64,000 nt of DNA, taken from the NCBI GenBank assembly GCA_041663045.1, contig JBAZRH010000002.1:7179-71178 (forward strand). Reading direction: 5' to 3'. The position numbers and the translations under genes were made by a program. The notes under the pieces are model-generated. The model worked only from the letters and a program-made list of their open reading frames with translations. It was not told where the DNA came from and did no database searches. This DNA comes from Minisyncoccota bacterium (GTDB taxonomy: Bacteria > Patescibacteriota > Minisyncoccia > Phycocordibacterales > GWA1-40-21). This document shows, one piece after another, positions 1 to 5,218 of this stretch (position 1 is its first letter; the number at the start of each line of letters is the position of its first letter).

Positions 1-16
1 CAAAAGAGAAGATAAA

Positions 17-40
17 CGCCCGCCGTAAGAACGGCGGGCG
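17..40 (-). terminator. Perfect GC hairpin (cgcccgccg / taagaa / cggcgggcg) followed by an A/T run; DGR VR-flanking hairpin and/or intrinsic terminator of target gene 1
   Basis: 9-bp all-GC stem with a 6-nt loop. An identical copy at 2810-2833 sits downstream of the second VR. The flanking sequence (aaacgcccgccgtaagaacggcgggcgcaaaaatcaa) is shared by both copies. Confidence 0.7.
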
Positions 41-50
41 CAAAAATCAA

Positions 51-119
51 ACCCCGTCAGAAGTCTTCAATGTTTTAATTTATCTTTAATCACTAAGCGC
101 GTTGGACTTCTGACGGGGT
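51..119. repeat. 69-bp palindromic insertion (15-16-bp perfect terminal inverted repeats accccgtcagaagtc ... gacttctgacggggt) between the VR1 stop codon and the conserved GC hairpin
   Basis: It is absent from the otherwise identical VR2 3' flank (2836-2842 joins caaaaatcaa directly to atctcgagg). It forms a long hairpin and creates the TAA stop of gene 119..970. Confidence 0.7.
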
Positions 120-970
120 TAAATCTCGAGGAGGACAACACGATAAGCGGCAAGCCATGAATCGCCTAGCCAGTCCGCACTGCGAAGCCAACCCGACCCG
201 TCCCAACGCGCAGACGGAACAAACCAGTCGCCGCCGGAACTGCGAACGAGGGAACCGGGAAAATAGAACCATACATCCGTATCTTTCAAAGAGGGTGGTG
301 TCTTGGTCGGGTTTTCAGTAAGCCATTTCCAATATTCCAAACCGGGGATGTGGTGGGTACCAGAGTAAGTATCCGCTAGATGCTTAAAGACATCACAGAG
401 TGGTCTGCCGACAAAGGAGGACAGGTCTGGGATAAAGATTTTGGATTCCTGAATATTTTCGAAATCTATATTCTGCATGTCTGGATTCAACATGTATTCG
501 CCGAATTTATCAGTATCGGTATCATCTTTTAGAGCGGTGTAGTCTTGGTCTTCTGGCTTGATTAGGGTGGGAACAAACCCTTTTTCTGGTTTTCCAAAAA
601 GTCCTTCCAAAATAGCTTTGTTTTGAGAATTGAGAGAAGTAATATCTGGGACAGATTCTTGAGGCAGATCTTTATCGCTTGATAGCATTTCTTTTATTTT
701 ATCTATTTGCTTGTCTGCCCGCAAAAGATCCTTTTGCATCTCTAATTTTCTTTTTTCTCCACTTCCTTCTGGTTCACCCTCTTTGTCATCAAAATCGCCT
801 TTCTCCAGCATGTCTTCATAAATATCTATCTGTTCCAAAGCATAAAGGCGAATATTCTCCATCCGTTCCGAAAGAGCTTGGCGAAGCTCTTCTTGAGTTT
901 TCTCTGGTCTTTGGGATTTTTCTGGAGATTTACGGCCTTTAGCCATCTGGTTTATAGCTTCAAAATTCAT
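119..970 (-). CDS. DGR target protein 1: coiled-coil/charged N-terminus plus C-terminal C-type-lectin/FGE-like variable domain (ends AAYRVVLLEI); no signal peptide
   Basis: The C-terminal roughly 150 aa is homologous to the C-terminus of the 2840..5218 product. The last about 45 codons form VR1 (122-258). Confidence 0.8.
   Translation of the reverse strand: MNFEAINQMAKGRKSPEKSQRPEKTQEELRQALSERMENIRLYALEQIDIYEDMLEKGDFDDKEGEPEGSGEKRKLEMQKDLLRADKQIDKIKEMLSSDKDLPQESVPDITSLNSQNKAILEGLFGKPEKGFVPTLIKPEDQDYTALKDDTDTDKFGEYMLNPDMQNIDFENIQESKIFIPDLSSFVGRPLCDVFKHLADTYSGTHHIPGLEYWKWLTENPTKTPPSLKDTDVWFYFPGSLVRSSGGDWFVPSARWDGSGWLRSADWLGDSWLAAYRVVLLEI
122..258 (-). repeat. DGR variable region VR1
   Basis: Differs from TR (2341-2468) at about 25 positions. 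Essentially all of them are positions where TR has A on the coding strand (AAT/AAC Asn codons in TR become S, D, F, R, L, G codons here). Confidence 0.85.
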
Positions 971-1039
971 ACTAATATGATAACAAATTTAAATATAATT
1001 TAACAGGGTATGATTATAATCTTATAACTCATGGTCTTA

Positions 1040-1899
1040 GATTGCCAATCTTTTCTAGCAAATCTGTCTTGATCTTGTGGGTATTTCCATAACTCAATAA
1101 CCCTAAATATGATAAAACCACTTCCTCCTTTGTATCGGGGAAAATGGCTTGATACATTCTTATTTTTGTCCTCGTCCGTAAGACTCAATATTTCTCAAAA
1201 TGTACCCAACCGAGAAAATCTATTCCAGAGCTCGCGGTTTTTATAAATACCTTGTCCGGATGTAATTCTAATTTTAAATTCTCTGCTAGAAATAATTTCA
1301 CCTTAGGTATCAAACCTTCAAGCCACAACTTATCTCTGCGGTATACCCTTGAGAAAACTGTCTATGACCGTATGAATGACCTGAATAAATCTCGGACATA
1401 CTATATGCCGATCGATTATCTTTTTTAAAATCTGATGGTCAATAGAAGCAAAACATTTTCTAATATCACCCTTCAATATCCAGACGGTTTTGGTATTATT
1501 TAAGCCTTCTTTTCTGACAAAAGACTTAAACCTAGCCAGTGCCCGATGCGTCCCCTTTTCCAGACGACAAGAATATGAATCAAAAATAAAAAATCGGTCA
1601 AAATATGGATATACTGCCCGATAAATAGCGTGATGGACTATTCTGTCTTTGACTGTCGCTTTATGAATATCCCGCAGTTTTGGCTCTCTGATTTGAAAAA
1701 ACTTATATCCTCCGTGGCGATAGGTGCCATTCATAATTTCCTCTTTTAAATCAAAGATACTTCCTGATAGGTTAAGAAAGAAATCCGCAACATCTGCCTT
1801 TTTCTTTTTGCCGTTTCTGAATTCTAACCAACTTCTCATCAGAGATTGATAAGAGAAAATCTCTTCAAACTTGCCAGTGTATGTTTTATCTTTATGCAT
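1040..1899 (-). pseudogene. DGR-type reverse transcriptase, disrupted (frameshifts plus internal deletion removing the motif 4/5 YxDD region)
   Basis: ORF 1330..1899 encodes RT motifs 1-3 (YRHGGYKFFQIREPKLRDI, DRIVHHAIY, FIFDSYSCRLEKGTHRALARF, LKGDIRKCFASIDH) and then stops at GIPQR. A second frame continues DKLWLEGL..LKLELHPDKVFIKTASSGIDFLGWVHF (motifs 6/7). A third frame gives SYLGLLSYGNTHKI (DGR RT C-terminal motif). No YxDD can be found. Confidence 0.7.
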
Positions 1900-1914
1900 T
1901 ATAATAGCTAAATT

Positions 1915-2340
1915 ATGAATATTAAAAAGAAATCATTTTTACCGCCAAAAAAATTATCAGGGATAACATCAAATCTACTGGAAGCTTATGTCTTCTGGCA
2001 AAGTAAGACCAAACATATCCCCAAGATGCTCCGCTATTCCATGGGTGTGCGGATTGATTCTATTTTTGCGGAAATGATAGAGACAGTTTACATCGCAATA
2101 TTTACTTCTCCAGAAAAGAGAGCCCTCTTGATAGATAAGGCTAATACCAGAAATGATTTACTCAAATTCATGCTCAATGTCTTGTTTGAACTAAAAGGTC
2201 TGAAAGAAGACGCCTTCAGTGAAATCTCATTGAAAATGGAAGAGATCGGCCGAGTGCTATACGGTTGGAGAAATCAAGTGGAAAGACAAAACCAAAACGG
2301 TTCGACAAAAGCCGAACCTATTGGAAATGATAAAAAGTAA
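1915..2340 (+). CDS. avd: Avd-like accessory variability determinant (four-helix-bundle protein)
   Basis: 141 aa. The pattern IPKMLRYSMGVRIDSIFAEMIETVYIAIF ... KFMLNVLFEL ... EEIGRVLYGWRNQV matches the Avd / 23S-IVS four-helix-bundle family. Its stop codon abuts the TR. Confidence 0.65.
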   Translation: MNIKKKSFLPPKKLSGITSNLLEAYVFWQSKTKHIPKMLRYSMGVRIDSIFAEMIETVYIAIFTSPEKRALLIDKANTRNDLLKFMLNVLFELKGLKEDAFSEISLKMEEIGRVLYGWRNQVERQNQNGSTKAEPIGNDKK

Positions 2341-2468
2341 CGAGGAGGACAACGCGATATTCGGCATTCCACGAATTGTCTAGCCAGTTCGCATTGCGAT
2401 TCCAATCCGACCCGTCCCAATTCGCATACGGCACATTCCAGTTGCCGTCGGAATTGCGAACGAGGGAA
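2341..2468 (-). repeat. DGR template repeat (TR)
   Basis: Coding-sense translation is SLVRNSDGNWNVPYANWDGSDWNRNANWLDNSWNAEYRVVLL, with 10 AAT/AAC codons. Both VRs differ from it only at its adenines. It is not in a credible gene (ORFs 2318..2548 and 2274..2504 are spurious readings of it). Confidence 0.85.
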
Positions 2469-2809
2469 CGATAGTGCAAAGGCCATCGAGTCCACTGCCA
2501 GCAAGAGGCCTTACCCAATTGTACCGGCTGAATATAATTTGGTATCATAATGCCCCAGTCTTTGCACAGATTTTTTATCTTTTTTCAGAATATGGAACAC
2601 ACTTTTCTTTGAAATTTCGCAGAAAATCCTGGCACCATATATCTCGACACTGCATCGTGAAAGATTCACTCCGTTAAAAGCTTTAGCAGGGTTAATCCCG
2701 CACGCATATTTGCAAGTGCCTAAACAATATAACATTATATCCCCACAATCCAAAAAAATTCGCAAAAACAAGAGAAATCAAAAAACAGAAAGGCAGAAGA
2801 GAAGACAAA

Positions 2810-2833
2810 CGCCCGCCGTAAGAACGGCGGGCG
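2810..2833 (-). terminator. GC hairpin identical to 17-40, immediately downstream of the VR2 stop codon; DGR homing-associated hairpin and/or terminator
   Basis: cgcccgccg taagaa cggcgggcg, placed 7 nt past the TGA of 2840..5218. Confidence 0.7.
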
Positions 2834-2839
2834 CAAAAA

Positions 2840-5218
2840 TCAAATCTCGAGGAGGACAACGCGATACGCGGCACTCCACGAATCGCCTAGCCAGCGCGCA
2901 CTGCGATACCAACCCGACCCGTCCCAAGACGCACACGGCACAATCCAGTAGCCGCCGGAATTGCGAACGAGGGAACCAAAGTTGAAGTAGTATTTGCCGT
3001 CTTTTAAATTCACTCCTTTTGCATCAGCTGGCACTTTGTCCGGATTTTCCAATATAAATTTCCAGTATTCAATGCCTGGTAGTCGGTATTTGTCTGAATA
3101 ATTGTCAATCAGGTGTTTTGCTACTTCCGAAAGTGGTTTACCGTTGAGAGCAGAAAGGTCGGGGACGAAGATTTTGTCTTTTAGAGACTCCCAGTCCAGA
3201 TTTTGAGTATCGGGATTTACAGTAAACTCACCAAATTTAGAGGTATCAATATCAGCTTTTCTGGCTTGATAGTCTTCGGTCTTCGGATCCATGATTATTG
3301 GTTCTATGGTAGTGTCTTTTATTTTCTCATCTGAAATACCCCACATTTTATATGTCTGCTCAAGGAAAGAGGTGAATTCGGTCTTGAGGGATTCGGAATC
3401 AAGAGTCTCCTGTTTTTTGTCTGGCTTGCCTTTTAATTTTCTCCTCATAGATTTACTGAAATTATCTCCCTTTTCGGCATTTTCATCTCCCAAAAGAGCT
3501 TCAGCTTTACCCTTCAATAATTCGGCTCGTTTATGAAACGGGTCAAGCTCGGCGACTTCTTTTAAGCTTAAGTGCTTAATGTCTCCTGATTTTTCTTTCA
3601 ATTCTTCAACCGCTTCTTCACCGCGCATTGCCTTGATAGTATTGAATTTAAAGACATCATCCGGCAAATCAAGCTCTTTTGCGGTGAGAGTGAGTAGGAA
3701 ACCTTTTGAGGCTAGAATCTTGGCAACTAAAATTCTATCTTCTTTGGTGTATTCTTTGAATGTGAGAGCTGTCTTGAATCTTTCGTCCAAAAACTCGGCA
3801 AATGTCCTGCCGTTTTTACCGGTCTGCTTTTCTACAAGCCAAGAAGAGAGGATCGCTTCCACCGAACCTTGAGTCATTACGAATTTCTTGAGTGAATACA
3901 CTTTCCCTGAAGCATCCATCGCACCGGCTTTTCTTGCCACTTCTTTGTCGGTTTCATTGGTATAAGACTCTTGTATATCTGCCATCGCCTTACAAAGGTT
4001 CGGCAAGGTGGTATTCAAATCATAATATGACATATCTAAAGAGCCATCTCTATTCAAAAGGCGAGCAAGCATAATATCATAAGCTTCGTCAGCTGGAGTA
4101 TATTTGACTTCTAAGTTGTTTTGCTCAAATTCGCGAGCGATTTCTGGCGGGAGATCTTGCCTTTCAGGATTCTTCTCGGATTTTAGGTTGGCTGTAAAGA
4201 CCATCTGAAAGCCTGGCTTGATTTCTACGACACCGTTTCCCACAATATTTATCCTATCACCGACTTTTGCATTAAAAACACCTTTGATAAAGACCATTTG
4301 CTCTTTTGGCAAAGCCGTGAATTCATCAAATATAACTGTCCTGCCTTCCATCATTGCTCTTGCAAGAGGTCCGTATATTTCGACGGTTTCTATCGCACCG
4401 TCTTTGGCTGGTCTTATACCTGTCTTGCCCCAGACATTGGATTCTTTTGTCTGTGGATTACAAAAGACCATCTCCGAATCTTTGCCAGTAAAATGCGATG
4501 ATGCAAACCTTGCAAGAGATGTCTTGCCTGTCCCCGTTGGCCCATGTAAGAATATCGGCTTTCCAGTAAGCATTCTGTCCCCTATTGCCTCCAAGGCTTT
4601 TTCTACTGTTGGAGTAACACAAATATGCCCGCTTTGACCAAGATCTTCTTTATATTCTATGAGCTCTGCCTTGCGAAGAGTAATCTGATCAGATTGTTCT
4701 AATCTGGCCTCACTGGCTTCAAGCTCTTCTTTGATTGTCTTGAGCACCGCTTCATTTCTCTTTCTTGTCGGCAAAGAAATCCTTTTATCCAAAATCTCCA
4801 ACATTCTTCGCATTCTAAAATCTTTTAAATCAGAAATATTCTCTACGGTCTTTAGGACATCTGCGATTTCTGGATTTTCCCCAAGTATCGCCTCTTGATC
4901 GATTTGTGAAGAGTTTTCTGCAAGGTTTCCTTCGTATTCTGTTTTCTGTTTTCTAAGGGCTTCTTTGGCACCCTTTAAACCACTATCTTCTGGGTTTGGA
5001 TTTTTCTTATCTTTAAAATCAGCAATCTTAAAAGCAGACGCCTTTTTATCTAAAGCTTCTTTTTCTCCTTTATAGTGCTTCTCAAAGATTTCAGTTTCAG
5101 GACTGCTTTCATCACCCTCTTTTATATCAAGTTCTTGAATTGCTTTCCTCAATTCTTTTCTTCCTTCAGAAATCTCATGAAAATTAGGTATCTTTTCCAT
5201 ATTTAGATTATAAAACAA
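2840..5218 (-). CDS. DGR target protein 2: AAA+ ATPase (AAA_5, MoxR/McrB-like) with C-terminal C-type-lectin/FGE-like variable domain; no signal peptide
   Basis: Walker A FLHGPTGTGKTSLARF, Walker B VIFDEFTAL, then QMVFTANL. N-terminal coiled coil. The C-terminal 150 aa is paralogous to the 119..970 product and ends ...SWDGSGWYRSARWLGDSWSAAYRVVLLEI. Confidence 0.85.
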   Translation of the reverse strand: MFYNLNMEKIPNFHEISEGRKELRKAIQELDIKEGDESSPETEIFEKHYKGEKEALDKKASAFKIADFKDKKNPNPEDSGLKGAKEALRKQKTEYEGNLAENSSQIDQEAILGENPEIADVLKTVENISDLKDFRMRRMLEILDKRISLPTRKRNEAVLKTIKEELEASEARLEQSDQITLRKAELIEYKEDLGQSGHICVTPTVEKALEAIGDRMLTGKPIFLHGPTGTGKTSLARFASSHFTGKDSEMVFCNPQTKESNVWGKTGIRPAKDGAIETVEIYGPLARAMMEGRTVIFDEFTALPKEQMVFIKGVFNAKVGDRINIVGNGVVEIKPGFQMVFTANLKSEKNPERQDLPPEIAREFEQNNLEVKYTPADEAYDIMLARLLNRDGSLDMSYYDLNTTLPNLCKAMADIQESYTNETDKEVARKAGAMDASGKVYSLKKFVMTQGSVEAILSSWLVEKQTGKNGRTFAEFLDERFKTALTFKEYTKEDRILVAKILASKGFLLTLTAKELDLPDDVFKFNTIKAMRGEEAVEELKEKSGDIKHLSLKEVAELDPFHKRAELLKGKAEALLGDENAEKGDNFSKSMRRKLKGKPDKKQETLDSESLKTEFTSFLEQTYKMWGISDEKIKDTTIEPIIMDPKTEDYQARKADIDTSKFGEFTVNPDTQNLDWESLKDKIFVPDLSALNGKPLSEVAKHLIDNYSDKYRLPGIEYWKFILENPDKVPADAKGVNLKDGKYYFNFGSLVRNSGGYWIVPCASWDGSGWYRSARWLGDSWSAAYRVVLLEI
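2843..2977 (-). repeat. DGR variable region VR2
   Basis: About 85% identical to TR, with mismatches confined to TR-adenine positions. It is the 3' end of the AAA+ ATPase gene. Confidence 0.85.

What the first reader, a model, noticed from the sequence alone, without database searches (positions are those of the whole stretch)
1040..1899. The DGR reverse transcriptase appears to be a decayed pseudogene lacking the YxDD region
Motifs 1-3 are intact in ORF 1330..1899, but the frame terminates at GIPQR (start of motif 4). Motifs 6/7 (LELHPDKV...GIDFLGW) resume in another frame about 20 codons later, and the C-terminal SYLGLLSYGNTHKI motif is in a third frame. About 35-45 codons that should contain LTSQ...Y(V/M)DD are missing. 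The element therefore looks immobilised, or dependent on a trans-acting RT elsewhere in the genome. The VRs are still strongly diverged, which records past activity.
Basis: seen in the sequence. Interest (0 to 1): 0.6.

Follow-up and report, generated by a model that had tools for sequence, protein, structure and literature searches.

The report
Recently broken DGR reverse transcriptase gene
The reverse transcriptase gene of a mutagenic "diversity-generating retroelement" in a Candidatus Paceibacterota genome has lost its catalytic centre through a 122-base deletion and also carries a premature stop, so the element is almost certainly dead; this kind of recent decay is common and already documented for these elements.

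Summary
On the minus strand, 1899..1029 is a DGR reverse transcriptase (RT) remnant. Alignment to an intact 331-aa relative (83% aa identity) shows one clean 122-nt deletion at 1338|1337. It removes 41 codons (LGNLTSQLF…YIRYADDFVIFS: the rest of motif 4 and the catalytic YADD) and shifts the frame. The C-terminal piece is not in a third frame. It is in the same frame as the LELHPDK piece, separated by an in-frame TGA (1187..1185) that replaces an invariant Arg. TGA is a genuine stop in this genome. An independent Logan assembly is 100% identical across the region.

The rest of the cassette is intact: TR 2469..2341, inverted avd 1915..2340, and two target genes. VR2 differs from TR at 16 positions, all adenines. 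VR1 differs at 19 adenines plus 3 other positions. The surviving RT codons show no relaxed constraint, so the inactivation is recent. There is no second RT in the 64 kb; the rest of the genome could not be checked.

The TR-(avd)-RT layout and the AAA/Midasin target are the standard CPR type, and truncated DGR RTs beside A-only VR/TR pairs are already described in the literature. Verdict: real, correctly interpreted, ordinary.

The parts
1330..1899 (-). RT remnant, frame A: 189-aa ORF with motifs 1-3 and the start of motif 4 (GIP), ending at TAA 1332..1330. Identical to database protein P0001 (WC631_02265, Ca. Paceibacterota MAG).
   Evidence: RVT_1 28.5 bits, just below the 29.6 cutoff; profile positions 4-181, E=3e-87
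1337..1338 (-). Deletion junction (...GGTATACCGC|AGAGATAAG...). 122 nt present in intact relatives are missing here, which removes 41 codons including LGNLTSQ and YADD and shifts the frame. Microhomology at the junction is at most 1 nt.
   Evidence: (134 nt vs 12 nt between BLAST blocks)
1188..1337 (-). RT remnant, frame B: RDKLWLEGLIPKVKLFLAENLKLELHPDKVFIKTASSGIDFLGWVHFEKY (motifs 6/7).
   Evidence: (profile 229-280, E=1e-19)
1185..1187 (-). In-frame TGA nonsense codon replacing an invariant Arg (CGC/CGT in four relatives).
   Evidence: R282 invariant; TGA ends 7 of 38 long ORFs
1029..1184 (-). RT remnant C-terminus, same frame as B: VLRTRTKIRMYQAIFPDTKEEVVLSYLGLLSYGNTHKIKTDLLEKIGNLRP*.
   Evidence: (profile 282-324, E=4e-11)
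1915..2340 (+). avd accessory gene (141 aa), intact, on the strand opposite to TR and RT.
   Evidence: bAvd 31 bits, below the cutoff of 40; orthologues in L001/L003/L006/L008 carry bAvd hits; alignment
2341..2469 (-). Template repeat (TR), 129 nt with 27 adenines, encoding ...NSDGNWNVPYANWDGSDWNRNANWLDNSWNAEYRVVLL. It lies inside a degenerate copy of the target C-terminal domain.
2840..5218 (-). Target gene 2 (792 aa, AAA_5/MoxR-type ATPase N-terminal part), intact. VR2 = 2976..2848 at its C-terminus: 16 mismatches to TR, all at TR adenines.
119..970 (-). Target gene 1 (283 aa, no Pfam match), intact. VR1 = 255..127 at its C-terminus: 22 mismatches to TR, 19 at adenines and 3 not (TR positions 38, 98, 116).
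2810..2834 (-). GC hairpin (10-bp stem, 4-nt loop, then a T-run) starting 14 nt after the VR2/TR homology ends. A terminator, and/or an analogue of the DGR target-recognition hairpin.
17..41 (-). The same GC hairpin downstream of VR1.
50..120 (-). Long inverted repeat (16-nt arms AACCCCGTCAGAAGTC / GACTTCTGACGGGGTT) between the VR1 stop codon and the GC hairpin. Absent after VR2, but present after every VR in relatives with an intact RT.

Best explanation
This is a chromosomal diversity-generating retroelement (DGR) of the usual Patescibacteria/CPR type. On the minus strand the order is: target 2 (VR2), TR, inverted avd, RT, target 1 (VR1). Its reverse transcriptase gene has recently become a pseudogene. 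In a working element, TR RNA is copied by the RT-Avd complex into cDNA with random bases opposite template adenines, and that cDNA overwrites the VRs. Here a single 122-nt deletion removed the rest of motif 4 (LGNLTSQ, with the DGR-typical SQ) and motif 5 (YADD, the catalytic aspartates) and shifted the frame. A separate mutation turned an invariant Arg codon into TGA. No polymerase can be made from this gene, so the two VRs are frozen in their last diversified state unless another RT acts in trans. Shown: the lesions, their reproducibility in a second assembly, the adenine-specific VR/TR pattern, the intact state of avd, TR and both targets, and the absence of another RT in 64 kb. Inferred: loss of activity (from the established requirement for YxDD in all RTs) and the recency of the event.
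For: One clean 122-nt gap against the intact RT of L001, with 78-79% nt identity on both sides. The same 41 codons are present in all four relatives with DNA and contain residues invariant across 24 relatives: L188 G189 N190 L191 T192 S193 Q194, Y220, D222, D223. Profile positions 182-228 are found nowhere in the six-frame translation of the window. The TGA sits at an invariant Arg, and TGA is a real stop here: it ends 7 of 38 long ORFs, including both target genes. The independent Logan assembly L004 (SRR18595301) is 100% identical over 2758 nt and runs straight through both lesions. There is no flanking direct repeat that could cause an assembler collapse. Past activity: 16/16 and 19/22 mismatches at TR adenines, P about 1e-13. 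Recency: VR2 has 0 non-adenine mismatches in 102 non-A positions; surviving RT codons give dN/dS of 0.04-0.06 against sister lineages and balanced relative-rate counts of 12:12 and 11:8; avd and both targets are full-length and conserved. Literature: truncated DGR RTs beside A-only VR/TR pairs are described and read as very recent inactivation (PMC3521204); over half of candidate DGRs were discarded for premature stops or truncations (PMC5758913).
Against: No raw reads could be examined, so a minority intact allele in the population cannot be excluded. L004 may derive from the same sample or reads as the MAG, which makes it an independent assembly but not independent data. The nearest intact relatives are only 81-84% identical, so the 'no relaxed constraint' test has coarse resolution. 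Intact avd, TR and targets, together with a perfect A-only VR2, would also be expected if a trans-acting RT kept the system running.
Confidence: 0.85

Rival explanations
1. The cassette is still functional because a second, intact DGR RT elsewhere in the same genome (or on a co-resident phage or plasmid) supplies reverse transcriptase in trans. The local Avd and TR would be used by that enzyme.
For: avd, TR, both target ORFs and the post-VR GC hairpins are all intact. VR2 shows no non-adenine mismatch. About 10% of DGR-bearing complete genomes carry several DGRs (PMC5758913).
Against: No second RT in the 64-kb window. Every intact feature is equally explained by a recent inactivation, which the RT codon analysis supports. 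From my own knowledge of the Bordetella phage system, DGR RTs work with their cognate Avd and with TR-flanking RNA, so cross-service by a diverged RT is not a given. VR1 already carries 3 non-adenine differences.
Confidence: 0.07
2. The lesions are not representative of the organism. They would be an assembly or sequencing artefact, or the consensus of a deletion-bearing subpopulation that coexists with cells carrying an intact RT.
For: This is a metagenome-assembled genome and no reads were inspected. Schillinger et al. note that apparent point lesions in DGR RTs could be sequencing errors (PMC3521204).
Against: There are two independent lesions of different kinds. A second assembler produced the identical sequence without a break at the junction, although it did break at the nearby terminator repeats. 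The junction has at most 1 nt of microhomology and no flanking repeat. No protein closer than 84% identity with an intact centre exists among 5.8 billion database proteins.
Confidence: 0.06
3. The 189-aa N-terminal fragment (fingers, motifs 1-3) is retained as a protein with a new, non-polymerase role, for example binding TR RNA or Avd.
For: The ORF is intact from its ATG and shows no excess of amino-acid replacements.
Against: The same lack of decay holds for the downstream out-of-frame pieces, which cannot be under selection as part of that protein. That points to recency, not retention. No shorter homologues of this form recur among relatives: the other short hits sit on short contigs.
Confidence: 0.02

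Closest known systems
CPR-type DGRs of architecture B3, TR-(avd)-RT (Wu et al. 2018, PMC5758913; set derived from Paul et al. 2017)
   Same: Same order and orientation: TR, then avd on the reverse strand, then RT, with target genes on both sides. The host is Patescibacteria. One target has an AAA/Midasin-type ATPase domain, like their UVR4 class. Relatives L001, L003, L006 and L007 have the identical layout with intact 327-331-aa RTs.
   Different: The RT here lacks motifs 4 (in part) and 5 and carries a nonsense codon, so it would fail their 'putatively functional' filter.
Inactivated DGRs with truncated RTs described by Schillinger et al. 2012 (DiGReF survey, PMC3521204, their Fig. 4A-C)
   Same: The RT is truncated by a frameshift or nonsense event while the VR/TR pair still shows (almost) only adenine substitutions. 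Those authors read this as very recent inactivation.
   Different: Here the frameshift comes from a 122-nt internal deletion that excises the catalytic motif itself, and two lesions coexist. The host is a CPR bacterium rather than a cultivated organism.
Bordetella phage BPP-1 DGR (brt-avd-TR-mtd), the mechanistic prototype
   Same: A TR/VR pair with adenine-specific mutagenesis, an Avd accessory protein, a VR at the C-terminus of the target, and a GC-rich hairpin with a 4-nt loop downstream of the VR (PMC3240598 listed).
   Different: avd is inverted, there are two targets, and the VR scaffold has no Pfam match. The RT is only distantly related and, here, dead. The function of the hairpin was not tested.

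Membership tests
Diversity-generating retroelement (DGR) | TR/VR repeat pair whose differences fall at TR adenines | tested here: met
   VR2 16/16 and VR1 19/22 mismatches at adenines; 27 A in the 129-nt TR; P about 1e-13
Diversity-generating retroelement (DGR) | Adjacent RT of the DGR clade | tested here: met
   The remnant is 72-84% identical to 327-331-aa RTs of intact cassettes that have their own A-biased TR/VR pairs
Diversity-generating retroelement (DGR) | RT carries motif 4 [I/L]GxxxSQ and catalytic motif 5 YxDD (needed for a functional member) | tested here: not met
   Both lie inside the 122-nt deletion and are found nowhere in the window
Diversity-generating retroelement (DGR) | VR at the 3' end of a protein-coding target gene | tested here: met
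   Both VRs end 2 codons before the stop of intact ORFs of 283 and 792 aa
Diversity-generating retroelement (DGR) | Accessory variability determinant (Avd) | tested here: inconclusive
   bAvd hit of 31 bits is below Pfam's cutoff of 40. Orthologues in relatives are recorded with bAvd hits, and the protein is conserved
Diversity-generating retroelement (DGR) | Ongoing diversification (VR polymorphism within the population) | not testable with these tools
   Needs raw reads or several samples of this lineage; none were retrievable
Architecture B3 of CPR DGRs (Wu et al. 2018) | Core order TR-(avd)-RT with avd on the reverse strand | tested here: met
   TR 2469..2341 (-), avd 1915..2340 (+), RT 1899..1029 (-); definition from PMC5758913
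Pseudogene | Disabling lesions relative to intact full-length homologues, reproducible in sequence data | tested here: met
   A 122-nt frameshifting deletion plus a nonsense codon, measured against four intact relatives, with an identical independent assembly. Read-level confirmation was not possible.
Pfam RVT_1 (PF00078) | Score at or above the gathering threshold | tested here: not met
   The 189-aa fragment scores 28.5 bits against a cutoff of 29.6 and covers profile positions 8-106 of 205 only

The most novel reading that the evidence does not exclude
An RT-less DGR cassette (TR, Avd and two targets, all intact) is kept diversifying by a reverse transcriptase encoded elsewhere in this small Paceibacterota genome or on a mobile element. 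That would be a natural case of trans-complemented mutagenic retrohoming.
Probability: 0.06. Interest if true: 0.45.

Novelty: new member of a known kind. Interest (0 to 1): 0.12.

Why it matters
It matters little beyond correct annotation. GenBank records the gene as a 'hypothetical protein' (WC631_02265); it should be flagged as a DGR RT pseudogene, and the two VR-bearing genes should not be counted as actively hypermutating. The locus is a clean, datable example of how DGRs die: a catalytic-core deletion comes first, while avd, TR and the targets are still pristine. It could serve as a negative control in read-based surveys of DGR activity in CPR bacteria.

Tried and rejected
(1) Alternative genetic code, with TGA read as sense as in some CPR lineages. 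Rejected: TGA ends 7 of 38 long ORFs including both targets, and table-11 ORFs cover about 75% of the window.

(2) Assembler collapse between direct repeats. Rejected: the junction has at most 1 nt of microhomology.

(3) A YADD-bearing fragment relocated elsewhere in the window. Rejected: no profile hit with E below 1 outside the three pieces.

(4) My own idea that the long inverted repeat after VR1 was a disabling insertion, which would explain VR1's 3 non-adenine mismatches. Rejected: relatives with an intact RT carry an equivalent inverted repeat after every VR, and it is VR2 in the window that lacks it.

(5) Search for the source genome and a second RT in species-representative genomes.

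(6) Search for an intact allele of this lineage using the exact 22-mer 5' of the junction in JGI metagenome contigs: 0 hits.

(7) DNA of the P0004 locus (81% identical RT, 49-kb contig) could not be fetched because the file was too large.

(8) One fold call failed on a length limit and was repeated.

Full report
**What is in the sequence.** On the minus strand of window 1..5218 lies a complete DGR cassette. Target gene 2 (5218..2840, 792 aa) has an AAA_5-type ATPase domain and carries VR2 at its C-terminus. It is followed by the template repeat (TR, 2469..2341), an avd-like gene on the opposite strand (1915..2340, weak bAvd hit), the RT region (1899..1029), and target gene 1 (970..119, 283 aa) carrying VR1.

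The RT region reads as the first-stage reader described. A 189-aa ORF (1899..1330) carries motifs 1-3 and stops at TAA immediately after GIPQR. LELHPDKV...GIDFLGW lies in another frame, and SYLGLLSYGNTHKI lies further on.

**Correction to the observation.** The three-frame translation shows that the last two pieces (1328..1185 and 1184..1029) are in one and the same frame. They are separated by an in-frame TGA at 1187..1185, not by a second frameshift. That codon aligns to Arg (CGC or CGT) in all four relatives for which I obtained DNA. The Arg is invariant in an alignment of 24 related RTs (R282). TGA is a real stop codon in this genome: it terminates 7 of 38 long ORFs, including both DGR targets, and standard-code ORFs cover about 75% of the window.

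**Nature of the main lesion.** A search with the 189-aa fragment found the identical protein already on record: P0001, 'hypothetical protein WC631_02265', from a Candidatus Paceibacterota MAG, on a 295-kb contig. It also found many full-length relatives of 327-331 aa, the closest at 81-84% identity. I retrieved loci encoding four different intact relatives (L001-L003, L005, L006/L007, L008).

The DNA alignment of window 1899..1029 with the intact RT gene of L001 shows 78-79% identity on both sides of a single clean 122-nt gap...GGTATACCGC|AGAGATAAG..., at window 1338|1337. The gap is 41 codons minus one base, so it both deletes LGNLTSQLFINLYLNEFDQYVKRVLKVSKYIRYADDFVIFS and shifts the frame. 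The deleted stretch holds the residues that are invariant across the family: LGNLTSQ of motif 4, and Y220, D222 and D223 of the YADD box.

A profile built from 105 full-length relatives matches the window only at the three remnant pieces (profile positions 4-181, 229-280, 282-324). Nothing matches positions 182-228, and there is no other RT-like sequence in the 64 kb. The junction shares at most one base of microhomology in the four relatives, so no repeat is present that could have misled an assembler.

**Is it real?** L004 is a 2758-nt contig assembled independently by the Logan project from run SRR18595301. It is 100% identical to window 22..2779 and runs through both lesions without a break. 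Its ends fall at the about 55-nt terminator repeat that follows both targets, which is where a de Bruijn assembler would be expected to stop. Two lesions of different kinds plus a concordant second assembly make an artefact unlikely. I could not inspect reads, however, so a minority intact allele cannot be excluded. No intact protein closer than 84% identity exists in the 5.8-billion-protein collection. An exact 22-mer from the 5' side of the junction has no match in the JGI metagenome contigs.

**State of the rest of the element.** TR (129 nt, 27 adenines) against VR2 gives 16 mismatches, all at TR adenines. TR against VR1 gives 22 mismatches, 19 at adenines and 3 elsewhere (TR positions 38, 98, 116). 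The hypergeometric probability of such a bias is about 1e-13 for each VR. TR adenines sit almost entirely at codon positions 1 and 2 (25 of 27), in AAY, GAY, AAT-type codons. This is the classic DGR signature and shows past mutagenic retrohoming.

avd is full-length and well conserved against its orthologues. Both targets are full-length compared with relatives: 792 vs 792 aa, and 283 vs 285 aa. Both VRs are followed by the same GC hairpin with a 10-bp stem and 4-nt loop.

**Timing.** In a codon alignment of the 285 surviving codons, the window's RT shows dN/dS of 0.04-0.06 against its two sister lineages (dS is saturated). Relative-rate counts of lineage-specific replacements are balanced: 12 vs 12 against L001, and 11 vs 8 against L005, with two outgroups. 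There are 9 window-unique replacements at positions where the other four sequences agree, against 10 and 6 in the intact sisters. So there is no measurable period of relaxed constraint.

Together with zero non-adenine differences between TR and VR2 over 102 non-A positions, this places the inactivation very recently on the scale these relatives can resolve. The resolution is coarse, because the nearest relative is about 17% divergent in protein.

**Mechanism.** Established knowledge of DGRs comes from the Bordetella phage BPP-1 system (papers listed). TR RNA is reverse-transcribed by the RT-Avd complex with misincorporation opposite adenines, and the cDNA replaces the VR. All RTs need the motif-5 aspartates for catalysis. 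With that motif deleted from the DNA, this gene cannot supply polymerase in any frame, whatever happens at the stop codons. The best-supported reading (confidence 0.85) is therefore a recently dead DGR whose VRs are frozen.

The rivals are as follows:
- **Trans-complementation by another RT elsewhere in the genome (0.07).** It is not excluded, because my scan of representative genomes did not retrieve the source MAG.
- **Artefact, or an unfixed deletion allele (0.06).**
- **A retained function for the 189-aa fragment (0.02).** This is disfavoured because the out-of-frame downstream pieces are equally undecayed.

**Comparison with what is known.** Wu et al. (PMC5758913) define architecture B3, TR-(avd)-RT with avd on the reverse strand, and report that it accounts for 90% of CPR DGRs. 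They describe a CPR VR class (UVR4) whose targets match the Midasin/AAA ATPase domain. [quoted passage not shown] Schillinger et al. (PMC3521204) describe DGR RTs truncated by nonsense, frameshift or transposon events whose VR/TR pairs still show only adenine changes, and conclude that the inactivation 'must have happened very recently'.

The window's element is thus a further member of a known kind (a B3-type CPR DGR) in a known state (recent RT pseudogenisation). The RT family itself is abundant, with at least 593 related loci among species-representative genomes, nearly all Patescibacteria.

**Verdict.** Novelty and interest are low (0.12). The only route to something more interesting is a trans-acting RT keeping an RT-less cassette active, which read-level VR polymorphism and a whole-assembly RT search would settle.

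Noticed in passing
window 50..120 (-); compare L001:3090..3200, L001:7690..7800, L003:4965..5075: Directly after the stop codon of VR-bearing genes there is a long inverted repeat with 16-19-bp arms. In the window it is AACCCCGTCAGAAGTC...GACTTCTGACGGGGTT; in relatives it is AACCCGTCACCAATTT...AAATTGGTGATGGGTT. It is followed by a GC hairpin. The stem sequence differs between lineages but pairing is kept (DNA fold z = -7.4 and -5.0). It follows every VR in the relatives with an intact RT. In the window it follows only VR1, and it looks precisely excised after VR2 (AGATTT|GATTTTTGCG). The arm occurs nowhere else in the window. It could be a DGR target-recognition structure or a small mobile insert; this is unresolved.
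   Followed up: partly
window 17..41 and 2810..2834 (-); repeat blocks 1..59 and about 2790..2844: An identical 25-nt GC hairpin (GCGCCCGCCGT TCTT ACGGCGGGCG, then a T-run) and about 55 nt of shared flank follow both target genes. It resembles both an intrinsic terminator and the GC hairpin with a 4-nt loop needed for target recognition in the Bordetella phage DGR. It starts 14 nt after the end of VR2/TR homology, but 86 nt after the corresponding point of VR1.
   Followed up: partly
L001:2236..3093 and L001:6692..7687: In a relative with an intact RT, two different target genes (285 aa and 331 aa) carry completely identical 129-nt VRs and identical downstream sequence. This is unexpected if each VR is diversified independently. 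It suggests a very recent duplication or gene conversion, or an assembly repeat issue.
   Followed up: no
window 2342..2647 (-): The TR sits inside a degenerate, non-coding copy of the target C-terminal domain (35% aa identity to residues 176-281 of target 1, extending about 180 nt upstream of the TR proper). This is consistent with the TR having arisen from a duplicated target 3' end.
   Followed up: no
window 127..255 (VR1), TR positions 38, 98, 116: VR1 has three non-adenine differences from TR, whereas VR2 has none. Position 116 lies in the adenine-free 3' 17 nt (IMH-like), and there VR1 matches the base found in the TR of relative L001. VR1 may have stopped being rewritten earlier than VR2, but an intact relative (L003) also shows 1 non-A mismatch in 21, so this is not decisive.
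   Followed up: partly
window 119..970 (-) and the C-terminal ~150 aa of 2840..5218 (-): The VR-bearing C-terminal domain shared by both targets (58% identity over about 150 aa) has no Pfam match, so the fold of this CPR VR scaffold (...WDGSGW.RSA.WLGDSW.AAYRVVLLEI) remains unassigned. Wu et al. likewise leave the UVR classes unassigned.
   Followed up: no
L001, L002, L003, L006, and the P0004 locus: The same cassette sits in different genomic neighbourhoods in different relatives: next to rpoB in L002, TspO/GIY-YIG in L003, rpmF/nusB/rnc at the P0004 locus. It is often accompanied by PemK-toxin and VWA-domain genes that are absent from the window's cassette. This hints that the cassette moves or that its surroundings are rearranged frequently.
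   Followed up: no
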